A DNA stretch of 64,000 bases from a virus, in the IMG/VR virus record IMGVR_UViG_3300018053_000002, positions 10,063 to 74,062 of that record; one strand, written 5' to 3'. How positions within the stretch are numbered: the first letter of the stretch is position 1; each line of letters begins with the position of its first letter. Positions 61,578 through 64,000 of this stretch are shown here, piece after piece. The notes below the pieces were generated by a model. That model worked only from the letters and a program-made list of their open reading frames with translations, was not told the DNA's origin and did not search any database. The position numbers and the translations under genes were made by a program.

Positions 61578-62125
61578 AGTATCGAGAGCGGCAAGTTGAG
61601 GTCGACGCCATCCAGTGGTTCAAGAACGGTGATCATCCCGGGGACGGTCCGGCTGATCTGGAAGGCCGGGTCGTGCGCTACTTCCGGCACCCCTACGTAT
61701 CAGGTACGGACGTCCACAGCGAGTGTGAGCGGACATGGCACGACCATGGCTGGATCGATGTTGGAGCGCCAACCAACGGTAAGACGGTCTGTCCAGGTGA
61801 CTGGATCATTTCGGGCGCCGGTGGGGACTACGCGCTCAAGTCTGAGCTGTTTGAGGCCATGTACGAGGCAGTCGAACCGTGGAATCTGGTCACTGCCGAG
61901 CGTGATGACATCAAGGCCATCACCAAGAAGTGGCTCCAGGTCTGCGTTCCCTGCGATGCCGGGGTCTCCGGCACGTGCACCCATCCGGCCGAGGACTACC
62001 GGCCCGTCATCGCCGCACTCGTGGAGGAGTTGAGGCTGACACTCCAGTACCTCGAAGCGGTCCAGCACTACCGCCGGTTGGCCGAGGACCAGGTCATTGA
62101 GCTGATCAACCGGACGACATCATGA
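61574..62125 (+). CDS. hypothetical phage protein
   Basis: MKYR...VEVDAIQW...VCPGDWII...LF...YE. Confidence 0.75.
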   Translation: MKYRERQVEVDAIQWFKNGDHPGDGPADLEGRVVRYFRHPYVSGTDVHSECERTWHDHGWIDVGAPTNGKTVCPGDWIISGAGGDYALKSELFEAMYEAVEPWNLVTAERDDIKAITKKWLQVCVPCDAGVSGTCTHPAEDYRPVIAALVEELRLTLQYLEAVQHYRRLAEDQVIELINRTTS

Positions 62126-62871
62126 CGACGACGTTCGCCGCACCGGCGGTGTCGAGTTCGGTCCACCTGCAACAGATCGTCAGGCGGGCGGCCGAGGCGT
62201 CGCCACGGAACCAGCAGGTGGCGGTGGGCCCGTCCGAGATGGGCGACGAGTGTGACCGACGGCTGGCCTATCGCGCGCTCGACGTGAAGGGTCCGAACAC
62301 CTCGGGCGACCCGTGGCCGTCCATTGTCGGGGTCGCGGTCCACGGCTGGCTGGCTGATGCCTTCACGTTGGAGAACCAGCGGTTGGGCCGGGTGCGTTAC
62401 CTCATCGAGCAACGCGTCTTCATGACCGACGGGATCTCCGGCACGTGCGACCTCTTCGACGTGGACCAGGCCGAGGTCATCGATCACAAGATCCTCGGTA
62501 CCACCTCCATGAAGAAGATCAAGTCGGGGGACATCGCGGCTCGGTACCAGGTCCAGCTTCAGCTCTACGGGTTCGGACTGCGCCGGGCCGGACGCCGGGT
62601 CGAGCGGGTGAGCCTGGCCTGCTATCCGCGGGGTGGCTTCCTTGACGGGCTCTACGTCTGGAGTACCGACTACGACGAGGCGACGGCATTGGCCGCGCTG
62701 GCGAGGTTCTCCAACATCTCGGCGGCGGCGCTCGTGCTCAACCTCGATGACCCGAGCACGTCGTTCTGGGGAATGATCCCGGCCCAACCCACCCCCGAGC
62801 GCTGTGCCTGGTGCCCGTACTGGCGGCCGGGTCGACCTGCTGACTTCACCGGCTGCCCGGGGCCGACATGA
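62122..62871 (+). CDS. Cas4/RecB-like PD-(D/E)xK exonuclease
   Basis: GPSE.G.ECDR; G.AVH; GTCDL.D...IDHK; QLQLYG; C.WCPY...C. Confidence 0.88.
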   Translation: MTTTFAAPAVSSSVHLQQIVRRAAEASPRNQQVAVGPSEMGDECDRRLAYRALDVKGPNTSGDPWPSIVGVAVHGWLADAFTLENQRLGRVRYLIEQRVFMTDGISGTCDLFDVDQAEVIDHKILGTTSMKKIKSGDIAARYQVQLQLYGFGLRRAGRRVERVSLACYPRGGFLDGLYVWSTDYDEATALAALARFSNISAAALVLNLDDPSTSFWGMIPAQPTPERCAWCPYWRPGRPADFTGCPGPT

Positions 62872-63389
62872 CCACCACCGCTGGAGGGACCATGGCTACT
62901 ATCGATCTTCATGCACTCGTTGACCGTGTACTGGACGAGACTGACCTTGTTCCATCTGAGGACATCACAAGGAAGGTTATTAAACTCCTCCGTGAGGACC
63001 AGCTCCGTGACGCTCTTTACATTACCTTGCTCGTCTTTGTCAGACAGCGCATGAGCTTCCGACACAATAGGACGGGGGTCAAAGCAGCATCGAATCCAAA
63101 TCTGCCTCCAATTAAAATTGTGGGCCGGTCGGCGAAAGTGTCCGGTTATCGCCACTGGGCGCCATGGCTGCGGGGACGTTATGATTCAATCCAGCAAATG
63201 CTCGGTAACTGCACTCAAGACAATCTGCTAACCCTGATTAAAGAACGTCGGACGCACGCTGCGGACACCAATGCCGCCGCCGATCGGCTTCAGAAGATTT
63301 ATAACGCAATGATCGAGCACGACGTCCAGCGTGTCATCGACCTTCCGGCAGACGTGCTCAAGCTCCTCGGCGAGGAGTGGACGTCATGA
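62868..63389 (+). CDS. hypothetical helical protein immediately upstream of array
   Basis: ATGA coupling; visibly more AT-rich than neighbours; stop codon 4 nt before the first array unit. Confidence 0.75.
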   Translation: MTTTAGGTMATIDLHALVDRVLDETDLVPSEDITRKVIKLLREDQLRDALYITLLVFVRQRMSFRHNRTGVKAASNPNLPPIKIVGRSAKVSGYRHWAPWLRGRYDSIQQMLGNCTQDNLLTLIKERRTHAADTNAAADRLQKIYNAMIEHDVQRVIDLPADVLKLLGEEWTS

Positions 63390-63393
63390 CTAT

Positions 63394-64000
63394 CCGCCCG
63401 ACCAAACACGCCTCGACACCCATACTCGGATCGTTGGGGGGCGGGTCCAAATCTGCCGGCCGCCACACTACGGACGACACCCATGTTACTCTCGCGACCG
63501 GCAACAACTCCCACCCGACCAAAGAGAAGCCGACATCCACCTTTCCCGCGTCGGGTGGGCCCACTTCCCTCGTGACCAGTGTCCAGTCGACACCCAGACT
63601 ATCTCCGTCACGGGGGACTAAATCCGCCGGTCGCCATTCACCATTCGATATCCAATCGACTCGCGCGACCGGTACCAACTCCCACCCGACCACAGAGACG
63701 ACGACATCCACAGCGCATCCGTCGGGTGGGCCTAAATCTGTCGGCCGCCAGATCCTCACCGATACCCGCCCCCAGGGCGCGGCCGGTACCAACTCCCGCC
63801 CGACCACCTTGACGGCGATACCCACGCTCTCATCGTCGGGTGGGCCAACTTCCCCCGTGACCATAGAGATCACGACACCCAGTCCTTCAACGTCACGGGG
63901 GACCAAATCTGCCGGCCGCCAAGTGCCCTCCGATATCCAAAAGGATTGCGCGACTGGTACCAACTCCCACCCGACCGGCAACAACTCCCACCCGACCAAA
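63394..64000 (+). repeat. TIGR-like dual-spacer stem-loop array (10 complete units, 1 collapsed, 1 truncated by window end)
   Basis: Unit = 8-bp stem, CCA, N9, CGAYAYCCA, N9, CG, complementary stem, 8-10 nt linker; all spacers 9 nt and unique. Confidence 0.88.

What the first reader, a model, noticed from the sequence alone, without database searches (positions are those of the whole stretch)
63394..63998. Higher-order ABACB period and a collapsed unit show how the array evolves
Seen: three stem types, A (CCRCCCGA/TCGGGTGG), B (GYCGGYCG/CGRCYGGY) and C (CCYCGTGA/TCACGGGG), occur as A-B-A-C-B, A-B-A-C-B. At 63967-63987 an A 5' stem is fused to a B 3' stem through the shared CGACC, followed by another A. 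The 5-unit scaffold was duplicated, yet equivalent units have different spacers (units 1 vs 6, 4 vs 9). Inference: spacers are replaced or diversified inside a fixed scaffold rather than added at one end as in CRISPR, and units are lost by microhomology deletion. Alternating stems would also limit mis-pairing between neighbours.
Basis: partly seen in the sequence, partly recalled or inferred. Interest (0 to 1): 0.7.

Follow-up and report, generated by a model that had tools for sequence, protein, structure and literature searches.

The report
Phage guide-RNA hairpin array (TIGR)
The hairpin repeats at the end of this phage contig are a stem-loop "TIGR" guide-RNA array, a recently described RNA-guided DNA-targeting system, and related phages show that its short guide segments are swapped in place inside a fixed hairpin scaffold.

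Summary
From 63389 to the contig end there are 10 full 57-nt units in perfect register, a 21-nt collapsed unit and the start of another. Three covarying stem types run A-B-A-C-B twice (95 of 100 stem cells pair).

The "spacer" is composite. Every unit reads stem-CCA | 9 nt | CG-AYAY-CCA | 9 nt | CG-stem. That is the published stem-loop TIGR (tigRNA) architecture (PMC12045711; bioRxiv 10.64898/2026.09.09.750476).

The contig ends inside the array, so no tas gene is present. The upstream gene's homologues in three Gordonia phages and 16 of 61 IMG/VR loci are followed by the same kind of array and a Tas (Nop-domain) gene. The public minus-strand gene call over the array is probably a shadow ORF.

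Contigs from three sequencing runs carry the collapse junction.

In 8 cluster-A mycobacteriophages the unit number is fixed at 5. Neutral sites in tas are 91% identical, while spacer columns are 41% identical. In-place spacer turnover is therefore supported in relatives. A single 5-unit block duplication is not specifically supported.

Verdict: a new member of a known kind. It offers useful comparative evidence on how TIGR arrays evolve, which both papers call an open question.

The parts
62868..63389 (+). Upstream gene (173 aa, phrog_4604, all-helical, function unknown). It is a recurrent neighbour of array-plus-tas loci.
   Evidence: phrog_4604 E 3.4e-15. Homologues lie directly upstream of array and tas in Gordonia phages Spooky, BENtherdunthat and LonelyBoi and in 16 of 61 IMG/VR Tas loci. 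AF2 with 13 sequences gives pLDDT 79.4 and only helices. No PDB fold match at E<=0.001.
63386..64000 (+). Open reading frame that starts at an ATG overlapping the upstream stop (ATGA), runs through the whole array and is cut by the contig end. Probable 5' part of a tasA gene with an in-frame array.
   Evidence: 205 codons without a stop. GAGGAG lies 8 nt upstream, a 5 of 6 match to AGGAGG. Same layout in three Gordonia phages. ATGA or GTGA overlap in 11 of 14 related loci.
63393..63442 (+). Unit 1 (degenerate A stem): spacer A 63405-63413, loop repeat 63414-63422, spacer B 63423-63431.
63454..63503 (+). Unit 2 (B stem): spacer A 63466-63474, loop repeat 63475-63483, spacer B 63484-63492.
63510..63559 (+). 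Unit 3 (A stem): spacer A 63522-63530, loop repeat 63531-63539, spacer B 63540-63548.
63567..63616 (+). Unit 4 (C stem, one G-U pair): spacer A 63579-63587, loop repeat 63588-63596, spacer B 63597-63605.
63625..63674 (+). Unit 5 (B stem): spacer A 63637-63645, loop repeat 63646-63654, spacer B 63655-63663.
63681..63730 (+). Unit 6 (A stem): spacer A 63693-63701, loop repeat 63702-63710, spacer B 63711-63719.
63739..63788 (+). Unit 7 (B stem, two G-U pairs; loop repeat ends CCG): spacer A 63751-63759, loop repeat 63760-63768, spacer B 63769-63777.
63795..63844 (+). Unit 8 (A stem, one G-U pair): spacer A 63807-63815, loop repeat 63816-63824, spacer B 63825-63833.
63852..63901 (+). Unit 9 (C stem): spacer A 63864-63872, loop repeat 63873-63881, spacer B 63882-63890.
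63910..63959 (+). Unit 10 (B stem): spacer A 63922-63930, loop repeat 63931-63939, spacer B 63940-63948.
63960..63979 (+). Collapsed unit (the 57-nt register gives it 21 nt, 63959-63979; base 63959 is also the last base of unit 10's 3' arm): linker, an A 5' arm and the tail of a B 3' arm joined through the shared CGACC. It has no spacers, so it cannot give a guide.
   Evidence: Junction covered by contigs from 3 of 4 runs.
63980..64000 (+). Start of a further A-type unit (linker, 5' arm, CCA), cut by the contig end.
   Evidence: Contigs continue from here in two ways.
63358..63999 (-). Minus-strand ORF (213 aa, P0002). It is the gene called in public collections and is probably a shadow of the plus frame.
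   Evidence: The third codon positions of the two frames coincide (worked out). No homologue among 1.84 billion representatives. AF2 pLDDT 33.4. Atlas model pLDDT 0.34. A read-derived extra unit carries TGA in this frame (hand reading).

Best explanation
The repeats are a stem-loop type TIGR array (tandem interspaced guide RNA array) of an actinobacterial phage, read on the + strand.

Each 57-nt unit would give one tigRNA. A 10-bp closing stem holds two 9-nt guide segments, spacer A and spacer B. Each spacer is preceded by box C (CCA) and followed by box D (here CG). The two spacers are separated by a 9-nt loop repeat, CG-AYAY-CCA.

By analogy with published systems, a dimer of a small Nop-domain protein (TasA) binds the two box C/D pairs. 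The two spacers then pair with opposite strands of an 18-bp DNA target. Without a nuclease domain, the complex would bind or repress rather than cut.

The tas gene itself lies beyond the contig end. The array most likely forms the in-frame 5' part of that gene, encoding a disordered T/S/P/G-rich N-terminal extension.

Shown here:
- the unit architecture and the stem covariation;
- the open + frame with a coupled start;
- synteny with Tas loci in relatives;
- in-place spacer turnover in relatives.

Inferred:
- the presence of tas in this phage;
- transcription and processing of the array;
- the repressor function;
- translation of the array.
For: Architecture:
- 10 of 10 units read CCA-N9-CG....CCA-N9-CG. 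The invariant columns are C10 C11 A12, C22 G23, C28 C29 and C40 G41, and A30 holds in 9 of 10.
- The published definition has two 8-12-nt spacers flanked by box C/D motifs and variable palindromic stems instead of edge repeats (PMC12045711, section 9, read). Both repeats end in CCA (box C) and start with UG (box D), and these motifs covary between edge and loop (section 8, read). The loop between spacers is mostly 9 nt (bioRxiv 10.64898/2026.09.09.750476, section 7, read).

Stems:
- 95 of 100 cells pair and 8 of 10 pairs are compensatory.
- There are 8 G-U pairs on the + strand. By my count the minus strand would pair in 90 of 100 cells.

Protein link:
- Homologues of the upstream gene in three Gordonia phages are followed, with an ATGA overlap, by ORFs of 399-424 aa.
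- The first 110-135 codons of these ORFs are the same kind of roughly 57-nt hairpin array.
- The rest matches phrog_4285 (E 2e-103 to 7e-108) and the solved TasR and TasH chains 9mty_A (E 3.6e-6) and 21kl_A (E 4.8e-4).
- Bethlehem gp71 and Euphoria gp70, 53-54% identical to the Gordonia Tas domain, are listed in Table S1 of PMC12045711.
- The upstream-gene family sits directly before array and tas in 16 of 61 IMG/VR Tas loci.

Reading frame:
- The + frame has 0 stops in 205 codons. Its ATG overlaps the upstream TGA, and there is an RBS.
- In the Gordonia trio, no other in-frame start with more than 3 of 6 RBS matches precedes the conserved domain.
- 28 of 61 IMG/VR loci have 3 or more parsed units inside the stop-free in-frame extension of tas.
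- The preprint reports intragenic stem-loop arrays that keep the frame (its section 5, read).
Against: - No Tas or Nop-domain gene is in this 74-kb record (phrog_4285: 0 matches). The key partner is inferred from synteny with relatives that share only 24-36% identity in the upstream protein.
- Box D is CG here, not the UG described for TasR.
- The CUU motif reported at the stem base is present as CTT in only 2 of 10 units (the C-type units). Others have CTC, TCT or TCC.
- No array with these stems exists elsewhere in IMG/VR, and no DNA match in GenBank phages.
- Codon statistics do not favour the + frame. Its GC by codon position is .50/.68/.70, against .66/.47/.75 typical of this phage's genes, and the minus frame looks more gene-like.
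- In cluster-A mycobacteriophage Bethlehem the homologous array is clearly non-coding, with stops in all 3 frames. Translation is therefore not a family-wide property.
- No expression data are available.
Confidence: 0.85

Rival explanations
1. The region is part of a real minus-strand gene (P0002) for a 19-residue tandem-repeat protein, for example a beta-solenoid. The hairpins would be a by-product.
For: - The minus frame is open for 213 codons and is the gene called in public collections.
- Its GC by codon position (.68/.51/.69) matches real genes of this phage.
- In the loops, G is 50% at its first codon position (read on the minus strand).
- Its columns look protein-like: E/D, L/V, an invariant P, and hydrophobic positions 13 and 19 (my reading).
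Against: - No homologue at E<=0.001 among 1.84 billion representatives or in the 5.8-billion collection, and no Pfam or PHROG family.
- AF2 pLDDT is 33.4 and the Atlas model scores 0.34.
- Three sets of 10-nt Watson-Crick complementary arms cannot be explained by protein constraints.
- The conserved 9-mer is read in two different codon phases in B units versus A and C units.
- One read-derived unit has TGA where this frame has its conserved W (hand reading).
- The frame is the third-position-aligned antisense of the + frame, the usual shadow in GC-rich DNA.
- Its 3' end would overlap the upstream gene by 32 nt.
Confidence: 0.03
2. It is a hairpin RNA or DNA array unrelated to Tas. Examples would be an anti-defence decoy RNA, a CRISPR-like array, a replication or packaging element, or an orphan decaying TIGR-like array with no partner protein in this phage.
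For: - No tas gene is present in the record.
- No Rfam family matches.
- No target for the 10 spacer pairs is found in the phage's own 74 kb at 3 or fewer mismatches.
- The collapsed unit and the short units show that the array is being eroded.
Against: - The exact box C / 9 nt / loop / 9 nt / box D design is shared with arrays that sit in front of Tas genes in 3 Gordonia phages, 8 cluster-A mycobacteriophages and many IMG/VR loci.
- The same upstream gene family is linked to those loci.
- CRISPR features are absent. There is no single direct repeat, and the 'spacers' contain a conserved core.
Confidence: 0.09
3. The higher-order pattern and the collapsed unit are assembly artefacts at a repeat-induced contig end.
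For: - The contig ends inside the array and its last 29 nt repeat 63495-63523 exactly.
- Logan contigs break into 67-168-nt pieces here.
- One contig (X3 record 19) joins 63971 back to 63495.
Against: - The collapse junction shares only 5 nt (CGACC) with its two parents. That is far below k=31, yet it is carried by contigs from 3 of 4 runs at depths 4.3, 12.9 and 5.45, similar to the flank at 9.4, 13.3 and about 3.
- Units 1-10 are covered without differences by pieces in X1 and X2 (table 8).
Confidence: 0.03

Closest known systems
Stem-loop TIGR arrays of TIGR-Tas systems (Faure et al. 2025, PMC12045711, Fig. 7 legend and section 9; Xu et al. 2026, bioRxiv 10.64898/2026.09.09.750476)
   Same: - Tandem hairpin units.
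- Two 9-nt spacers, each between box C and box D.
- A 9-nt loop between the spacers.
- Stems that differ between units of one array but always pair.
- A phage host.
- An array placed at the 5' end of, and in frame with, the effector gene, as the 2026 preprint describes for some loci.
   Different: - tas is not on this record.
- Box D is CG, not UG.
- Only three stem types are reused in a regular order with a strict 57-nt period, whereas the preprint stresses stem diversity within arrays.
- CUU at the stem base appears in only 2 of 10 units.
- With 10 or more units plus further units in the reads, the array is long for a stem-loop array, going by the preprint's general statement that these arrays are shorter than dual-repeat ones.
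Arrays in front of tasA of cluster-A mycobacteriophages (Bethlehem gp71, Euphoria gp70; both listed in Table S1 of PMC12045711) and of Gordonia phages Spooky gp50, BENtherdunthat gp59 and LonelyBoi gp46
   Same: - The same unit design, CA-N9-CG..CCA-N9-C between 9-15-bp stems.
- The same neighbourhood type, an early or recombination region with a Cas4-like exonuclease nearby.
- The Gordonia loci also share the upstream phrog_4604-like gene and the ATGA-coupled in-frame layout.
   Different: - Those arrays have 5-7 units, each position with its own stem. This one reuses three stems.
- The cluster-A arrays are in a non-coding leader with their own RBS and GTG start.
- There is no detectable nucleotide similarity to this array.
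Dual-repeat TIGR arrays (36-nt tigRNAs of TaTasR and SpTasH)
   Same: - Split 9-nt spacers.
- Box C CCA.
- A pseudo-symmetric edge and loop design for a protein dimer (PMC12045711, section 8).
   Different: - Their edge repeats are short conserved sequences and not long variable stems.
- Their period is 36 nt, not 57 nt.
CRISPR arrays
   Same: A tandem array of conserved and variable segments, in a mobile element, that encodes guides.
   Different: - There is no single direct repeat.
- The variable part is split in two around a conserved core.
- In the relatives examined, unit number is fixed and spacers change in place, not by polar addition.
- No cas genes were looked for, beyond noting a Cas4-like exonuclease that is common in actinophages.
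Archaeal box C/D sRNAs and IS110 bridge RNAs
   Same: Guides held between box C/D-like motifs and bound by Nop-domain proteins (PMC12045711, discussion, read).
   Different: - No k-turn box C (RUGAUGA) or box D (CUGA) consensus is present here.
- These units are arrayed and are not single genes.

Membership tests
Stem-loop TIGR array (TIGR-Tas) | Tandem units, each with two short (8-12 nt) variable spacers separated by a short loop sequence (mostly 9 nt) | tested here: met
   10 of 10 units have 9 + 9 variable nt around a conserved 9-mer. Spacer identity between units is 25%, the chance level.
Stem-loop TIGR array (TIGR-Tas) | [quoted passage not shown] | tested here: met
   CCA precedes spacer A in 10 of 10 units and spacer B in 9 of 10. 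CG follows both spacers in 10 of 10. Box D differs from the UG of TasR, but the paper states that the motifs may diverge while covarying between edge and loop.
Stem-loop TIGR array (TIGR-Tas) | Variable but consistently palindromic sequences close each unit | tested here: met
   95 of 100 cells pair, 8 of 10 pairs are compensatory and 0 of 500 shuffles reach this.
Stem-loop TIGR array (TIGR-Tas) | An associated tas gene encoding a Nop-domain protein | not testable with these tools
   The record ends inside the array, and phrog_4285 gives 0 matches in the 74-kb record. A 77,114-nt contig holding the upstream protein exists but could not be fetched. Support comes from synteny only.
Stem-loop TIGR array (TIGR-Tas) | Transcription and processing into unit-sized tigRNAs bound by Tas | not tested
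   No RNA data could be examined.
Stem-loop TIGR array (TIGR-Tas) | Conserved CUU at the stem base (processing site; 2026 preprint, section 11) | tested here: inconclusive
   CTT lies directly 5' of the stem in 2 of 10 units (C type). A-type units have CTC and B-type units have TCT or TCC. In Spooky CTT is common.
CRISPR array | One direct repeat of 23-50 nt alternating with unrelated spacers | tested here: not met
   The inter-loop segments come in several flavours (A-B, B-A, A-C, C-B), and the variable part contains a conserved 9-mer.
Protein tandem repeat gene on the minus strand | Homologues, or a confident fold, or conservation explained at the protein level | tested here: not met
   The nucleotide motif is conserved in two codon phases.
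Any Rfam 15 family | A match at or near the gathering score | tested here: not met
   No match inside the array at E<=10.

The most novel reading that the evidence does not exclude
Proposed reading: stem-loop TIGR arrays do not grow like CRISPR arrays. Each position has its own conserved stem 'socket', and the 9-nt spacers inside it are replaced far faster than neutral sites change.

Spacers are replaced singly or as a pair:
- In cluster-A phages, unit 4 has spacer A 8/9 alike and spacer B 0/9 alike in 3 phage pairs.
- In L141, one unit pair has spacer A 8/9 and spacer B 3/9 alike.

Arrays also change in other ways:
- Whole units are exchanged between phages as cassettes.
- Arrays lengthen by duplicating blocks of 2-5 sockets, giving the ABAB and ABACB orders.
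- Arrays shrink by deletions between arms that preserve the reading frame.

This would mean that an unknown templated or recombinational spacer-swap process uses the box and loop sequences as anchors. The roughly 100 sequenced, cultivable cluster-A mycobacteriophages would then be a ready allelic series for finding TIGR targets and the swap mechanism.
Probability: 0.5. Interest if true: 0.7.

Novelty: new member of a known kind. Interest (0 to 1): 0.5.

Why it matters
TIGR-Tas was described only in 2025. Both papers I read state that nobody knows how TIGR arrays gain or change spacers (PMC12045711 discussion; 2026 preprint discussion).

This window by itself adds one more array, cut off from its protein. 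It does show an unusually regular array: a strict 57-nt period, three reused stems, a collapsed unit, and more units visible in the reads.

Following it to relatives gives a clear comparative result. In cultivable mycobacteriophages and Gordonia phages the hairpin scaffold and unit number stay fixed while the 9-nt guides are replaced. In cluster-A phages tas four-fold sites are 91% identical and spacer columns 41%.

That result makes the open question testable in laboratory phage-host pairs.

It also flags routine mis-annotation. Public gene calls translate the array on the wrong strand here. They also label the array-plus-Tas ORF or the Tas gene as 'hypothetical protein' or 'transposase' in GenBank phages.

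Tried and rejected
Searches of the array itself that found nothing:
- Tandem Repeats Finder, 0 rows. The units are too divergent.
- Rfam, nothing in the array.
- Pfam and PHROGs on both translations.
- Homologue searches with P0002 and P0001: no relatives.
- blastn of the array against GenBank phages: no match.
- Back-translated search with P0002 in IMG/VR: nothing.
- Our-findings look-ups by place and by sequence: nothing relevant.

Structure checks:
- AF2 of P0002 gave pLDDT 33.4, so I dropped the beta-solenoid idea that I had held early on.
- The Atlas look-alike search gave a best feature score of 0.79, below the 0.9 the tool asks for, and its own model is poor.
- The PDB fold search of the upstream protein gave no match at E<=0.001. 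The best hits were histone-fold rows at E about 2.

Searches for close relatives or a longer contig:
- The IMG/VR scan for A-type hairpins gave 78 loci. None holds an array by nhmmer except one weak hit at E 0.34, so these are chance matches.
- Relatives of the upstream protein by pattern search in IMG/VR and in metagenome contigs: none confirmed.
- An exact 40-mer of the window in metagenome contigs: none. The longer 77-kb contig noted could not be reached.
- Own record searched for Tas (phrog_4285): no match.

Target searches:
- The 10 spacer pairs, in both side-by-side arrangements, against the 74-kb record gave 0 hits at 3 or fewer mismatches (shuffles average 1.19 at 3 mismatches) and 19 at 4 mismatches (shuffles 12.1).
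- 25 parsed guides of 8 cluster-A phages against 50 kb of Bethlehem gave 0 hits at 2 or fewer mismatches and 2 at 3 mismatches (shuffles 2.63).
- Host genomes and the phage collections were not searched with spacer pairs.

Other:
- No RNA holder was listed for the stretch.
- Two spacer-A pairs with 6 of 9 identical letters (u3-u6, u6-u9) are within chance, by my estimate, for the 90 comparisons.
- Supplementary PDF figures S4, S12 and S13 of PMC12045711, and all supplements of the two preprints, could not be read. They may show arrays of this clade.
Full report
**1. What is in the sequence**

The window is bases 10063-74062 of a 74,062-nt IMG/VR virus record, rated linear and 81% complete. Position 64000 is therefore a contig end. 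The best protein relatives of the neighbouring Cas4-like exonuclease are in Rhodococcus, Gordonia and Mycobacterium phages at 40% identity or less, so this is an uncultured actinobacterial phage.

From 63389 the sequence falls into 10 units of exactly 57 nt with no indel. These are followed by a 21-nt unit and the first 21 nt of another. Each unit folds on its own into a 9-11-bp stem around a 30-nt interior.

I aligned the stem-to-stem cores as 10 ungapped 50-nt rows and tested a 10-bp helix on them:
- The helix pairs in 95 of 100 cells.
- 8 of 10 pairs change on both sides.
- 0 of 500 column shuffles reach the observed pairing or covariation.
- Sliding the 3' partner by 1-3 columns drops pairing to 34-49%.

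Unit 1 is a degenerate A. Given 4 A, 4 B and 2 C, a random order has no equal neighbours in about 4.3% of permutations. It has an exact period of 5 in about 0.3%.

**2. The interior is not one spacer**

In all 10 units the interior reads CA, 9 variable nt, a conserved 9-mer, 9 variable nt, C. The conserved 9-mer is CGAYAYCCA in 9 of 10 units and CGATACCCG in unit 7.

Taking in the last stem base on each side, both variable blocks are preceded by CCA and followed by CG. The invariant columns are C10 C11 A12, C22 G23, C28 C29 and C40 G41.

The variable blocks are unrelated to each other. Mean pairwise identity is 25.4% against 25.8% expected from composition. This holds for units five apart (25.6%) and for units with the same stem type (27.4%).

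**3. Coding or not, and on which strand**

One frame on each strand is open across the whole array, and their third codon positions coincide.

I first favoured the minus frame (P0002). It is the gene called in public collections. Its GC by codon position looks like that of real genes in this phage. Its 19-residue repeats look protein-like.

That reading did not survive the following checks:
- There is no homologue in 1.84 billion representatives or in the 5.8-billion collection.
- There is no Pfam or PHROG family.
- AF2 gives pLDDT 33.4, and the Atlas model scores 0.34.
- The conserved 9-mer sits one base later, relative to the codon frame, in B units than in A and C units. The conservation is therefore at the nucleotide level.
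- One extra unit seen in sequencing-run contigs has TGA in that frame where the other B units have the conserved Trp codon. The same change is synonymous in the + frame. This is my hand reading, table 5c, and it assumes the 57-nt register that the flanks give.

The + frame (P0001) is a T/S/P/G-rich, low-complexity sequence. It starts at an ATG that overlaps the stop of the upstream gene (ATGA), with GAGGAG 8 nt upstream. This continues a run of two earlier 4-nt gene overlaps, at 62122/62125 and 62868/62871.

**4. Identification**

A note from this scan on another genome (e1-4503647) pointed me to the TIGR-Tas paper (PMC12045711). I read its sections 4, 6, 8, 9, 10, 24 and the figure legends.

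[quoted passage not shown] In TasR, both repeats start with UG (box D) and end with CCA (box C). One G-C pair forms between the boxes, and these motifs covary between edge and loop.

It also describes a second class, stem-loop arrays, with these features:
- no edge repeats, but 'variable but consistently palindromic sequences';
- a loop that may keep a conserved length and sequence.

A 2026 preprint (bioRxiv 10.64898/2026.09.09.750476; I read sections 5, 7, 11 and 13) adds the following:
- The loop is mostly 9 nt.
- Stems diverge within one array.
- Such arrays can lie inside the tas coding sequence at its 5' end 'without disrupting the reading frame', where they encode disordered segments.
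- A CUU marks processing sites at the stem base.
- TasA acts as an RNA-guided transcriptional repressor.

The array here fits that design unit for unit on the + strand. Box C is CCA and box D is CG at both the edge and the loop. The G of box D pairs with the first C of box C: columns 10 and 41 are C-G in 10 of 10 units, and the loop repeat is written C-G-AYAY-C-C-A. The spacers are 9 nt and the loop is 9 nt.

G-U pairs favour the + strand. There are 8 G-U pairs there, and by my count the minus strand would pair in 90 of 100 cells against 95.

**5. The protein partner**

The record contains no Tas. The family phrog_4285 gives 0 matches, as expected if the gene lies beyond the contig end.

The upstream 173-aa gene (phrog_4604) has distant homologues in Gordonia phages Spooky, BENtherdunthat and LonelyBoi. 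In all three, the next gene overlaps it by ATGA and is annotated 'hypothetical protein' of 399-424 aa.

These next genes have two parts:
- The first 110-135 codons are T/S/P/G-rich, and their DNA is a hairpin array of 6-7 units with the same CA-N9-CG..CCA-N9-C interior.
- The rest matches phrog_4285 'transposase' at E 2e-103 to 7e-108. It also matches the solved chains 9mty_A at E 3.6e-6 and 21kl_A (TasH) at E 4.8e-4. 9mty_A is 331 aa, the length the paper gives for TaTasR.

Cluster-A mycobacteriophages carry a 235-aa homologue, 53-54% identical. Bethlehem gp71 and Euphoria gp70 are listed in Table S1 of the TIGR-Tas paper. The Gordonia accessions were not found in the part of that table that is held, which was cut when stored.

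In Bethlehem, five hairpin units fill the 336-nt gap before gp71. All three frames have stops, and a separate AAGGAGG precedes a GTG start.

A pattern search with a six-sequence Tas alignment found 61 IMG/VR loci. My own parser is crude and gives false positives and negatives. It finds tandem units at roughly 55-63-nt spacing in front of most of these genes. In 28 of 61 loci, 3 or more units lie inside the stop-free in-frame extension of tas.

The upstream-gene family lies directly before array and tas in 16 of 61 loci. In 11 of the 14 loci I examined, its stop overlaps an ATGA or GTGA start.

In the three Gordonia phages, the only in-frame start that would include the whole conserved domain is that overlapping ATG.

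I therefore read 63386-64000 as the 5' part of an array-plus-tasA ORF. I give about two chances in three that it is really translated. Against this stand the codon statistics and the non-coding state of the array in Bethlehem.

**6. The collapsed unit and the contig end**

The unit at 63959-63979 consists of a linker, an A 5' arm and the last 8 nt of a B 3' arm, joined where both share CGACC. It has no spacers and cannot give a guide. It is 21 nt long, so the frame is kept.

Logan contigs from four freshwater-sediment metagenome runs were laid on 62900-64000. These are contigs, not raw reads. The runs may include the source sample and may belong to one campaign.
- Contigs from 3 of the 4 runs carry the junction, at depths similar to the single-copy flank.
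- A 5-nt overlap cannot mislead a k=31 assembler. I therefore take the junction as real DNA and not as an artefact of the IMG assembly.

The same output shows that the array is longer and more complex than the contig:
- After the last A arm there are two continuations. One is identical to unit 3. The other has new spacers and closes with an A 3' arm.
- Further contigs carry new B-type and C-type units.
- There is a 39-nt short unit.
- One unit has an A 5' arm and a C 3' arm.
- One variant of unit 4 has both spacers different but the same loop and stem.
- Summed depth over the A-to-C junction reaches 116.6 in X2 against 13.3 in the flank. The tool warns that this is not a copy number.

By hand, none of the six read-derived stretches I could place has a stop in the + frame. 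The true order of units beyond 64000 cannot be resolved from these data.

**7. How the array evolves**

No close relative of this array exists in the collections, so I tested the idea on the family.

(a) Cluster-A mycobacteriophages. I took 8 phages spanning 86-100% identity over array plus tas.
- All 8 have 5 units.
- Stems, linkers and boxes are almost invariant. Pairwise identity is 86% in those columns and 43% in spacer columns.
- Four-fold degenerate sites of tas are 91.2% identical (3370 of 3697) against 41.4% for spacer columns (1099 of 2654).
- Of 140 unit-by-phage-pair comparisons, 92 have both spacers unlike, 19 have both alike and 5 have one alike and the other unlike. The other 24 fell between these cut-offs. 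For example, unit 4 of Bethlehem, Euphoria and Rufus against SarFire has spacer A 8/9 alike and spacer B 0/9 alike.
- Spacer alleles are shared in a mosaic way. Forsytheast equals Lamina13 at unit 1 but equals Bethlehem at unit 5. Arlo equals Dexes only at units 4 and 5.
- The number of allele classes falls towards tas (6, 6, 6, 5, 3). This could reflect linkage to tas and does not involve a change in unit number.

(b) The Gordonia trio.
- Orthologous units, recognised by their stems, keep 79% scaffold identity (343 of 435). Compensatory stem changes occur, for example GCGCC/GGCGC against GCACC/GGTGC.
- Their spacers are 29% identical (79 of 270). The non-orthologous background is 27.6% (522 of 1890). 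tas four-fold sites are 52-59% identical.
- Unit content differs in the interior of the array and not at an end (my reading).

(c) IMG/VR locus L141.
- It has 11 units at a strict 57-nt period in which two stems alternate.
- One same-stem pair has spacer A 8/9 identical and spacer B 3/9 identical.
- Among 19 parsed arrays with 5 or more units, 18 reuse a stem type under my lenient 2-mismatch rule. 7 of them have one adjacent same-type pair.

Taken together, spacers in this family are replaced in place much faster than neutral sites change. Replacement sometimes affects one spacer of a pair. Unit number and unit-specific stems persist. I saw no sign of polar addition.

Reuse of two or three stems in a regular order points to duplication of multi-unit blocks. 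In this window, however, scaffold identity does not single out a 5-unit block. Unit 3 is closest to unit 6 (38 of 39) and not to unit 8 (35 of 39). An order such as BA-CBA-BA-CBA fits equally well.

Microhomology deletion remains a reasonable reading of one junction.

**8. Function and targets**

By analogy with the published TasA work, the units would be cut out of a + strand transcript. They would then guide a TasA dimer to 18-bp sites, with spacer A and spacer B on opposite strands, and would repress rather than cut.

I found no target in two local searches:
- In the phage's own 74 kb there are 0 hits at 3 or fewer mismatches.
- For 25 parsed cluster-A guides in 50 kb of Bethlehem there are 0 hits at 2 or fewer mismatches.

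Host genomes and other phages were not searched. Both papers note that 9+9-nt guides give many false matches.

If the array is part of the tas mRNA, processing of guides would destroy the message. That would couple guide maturation to Tas synthesis. The 2026 preprint raises the same idea, and it is untested here.

**9. Novelty**

The system is known (2025), and intragenic in-frame stem-loop arrays are described in the 2026 preprint. The mycobacteriophage Tas proteins are in the 2025 supplementary table. The window therefore holds a new member of a known kind, and an incomplete one.

What I did not find in print is the comparative evidence on spacer turnover:
- The discussions of both papers I read say that spacer acquisition is unknown.
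- A full-text search for 'tigRNA' returned 19 papers, of which 17 were listed. A search for 'TIGR-Tas' plus 'stem-loop' returned 4. Judged from titles and abstracts only, these are about structure, mechanism and engineering.
- The supplementary figures of PMC12045711 and the preprints' supplements could not be read. They may bear on this.

Noticed in passing
window 62868-63389 (+); L099, L113, L140, L111, L122, L119, L121, L117, L152, L112, L098, L100, L138 just upstream of tas: A helical protein family of about 160-230 aa (phrog_4604) is a recurrent companion of array-plus-tasA loci. It occurs in 16 of 61 IMG/VR loci and 3 Gordonia phages, usually translationally coupled by ATGA or GTGA. It has a conserved C-terminal 'LP.dV' motif. 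No Pfam family, PDB sequence match or PDB fold match was found. It may be an undescribed Tas accessory protein.
   Followed up: partly
L084:4780-4900, L085:4625-4750, L086:4545-4610 (inside the Gordonia phage tas genes): The Gordonia Tas proteins carry an insertion of about 40 residues, rich in T/S/G/P, relative to the mycobacteriophage proteins. The DNA of this insertion parses as one or two further hairpin units of the same design. This resembles the intragenic 'wedge loop' tigRNA that the 2026 preprint reports for a Bifidobacterium TasA.
   Followed up: partly
window 63358-63999 (-): Public protein collections hold the minus-strand translation of the array as a predicted protein. It is most likely a shadow ORF. 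TIGR arrays in GC-rich phages can therefore seed spurious orphan 'repeat proteins'.
   Followed up: yes
GenBank phage records: Tas genes of cluster-A mycobacteriophages are variously annotated as transposase, DNA binding domain protein, HTH DNA binding domain protein or hypothetical protein. The Gordonia array-plus-Tas ORFs are mostly annotated as hypothetical proteins (RefSeq calls BENtherdunthat's a transposase). The arrays themselves are not annotated.
   Followed up: no
L141:2690-3390 (IMG/VR contig of 60,897 nt): An 11-unit array with a strict 57-nt period in which two stems alternate. It is followed after about 265 nt by two more units and then tas. It is the closest analogue I found to the regular stem reuse seen in the window.
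   Followed up: partly
window 62448-62519 (+): A weak Rfam match to Rothia-sucC RNA (30.4 bits against a gathering score of 64.5, E 0.0046) lies inside the Cas4-like exonuclease gene. It is probably chance.
   Followed up: no
window 62868-63389 versus its flanks: By eye, the upstream phrog_4604 gene looks more AT-rich than its neighbours, and its codon score (0.175) is below the 0.20-0.42 of the 15 training genes. This may reflect acquisition together with the array.
   Followed up: no
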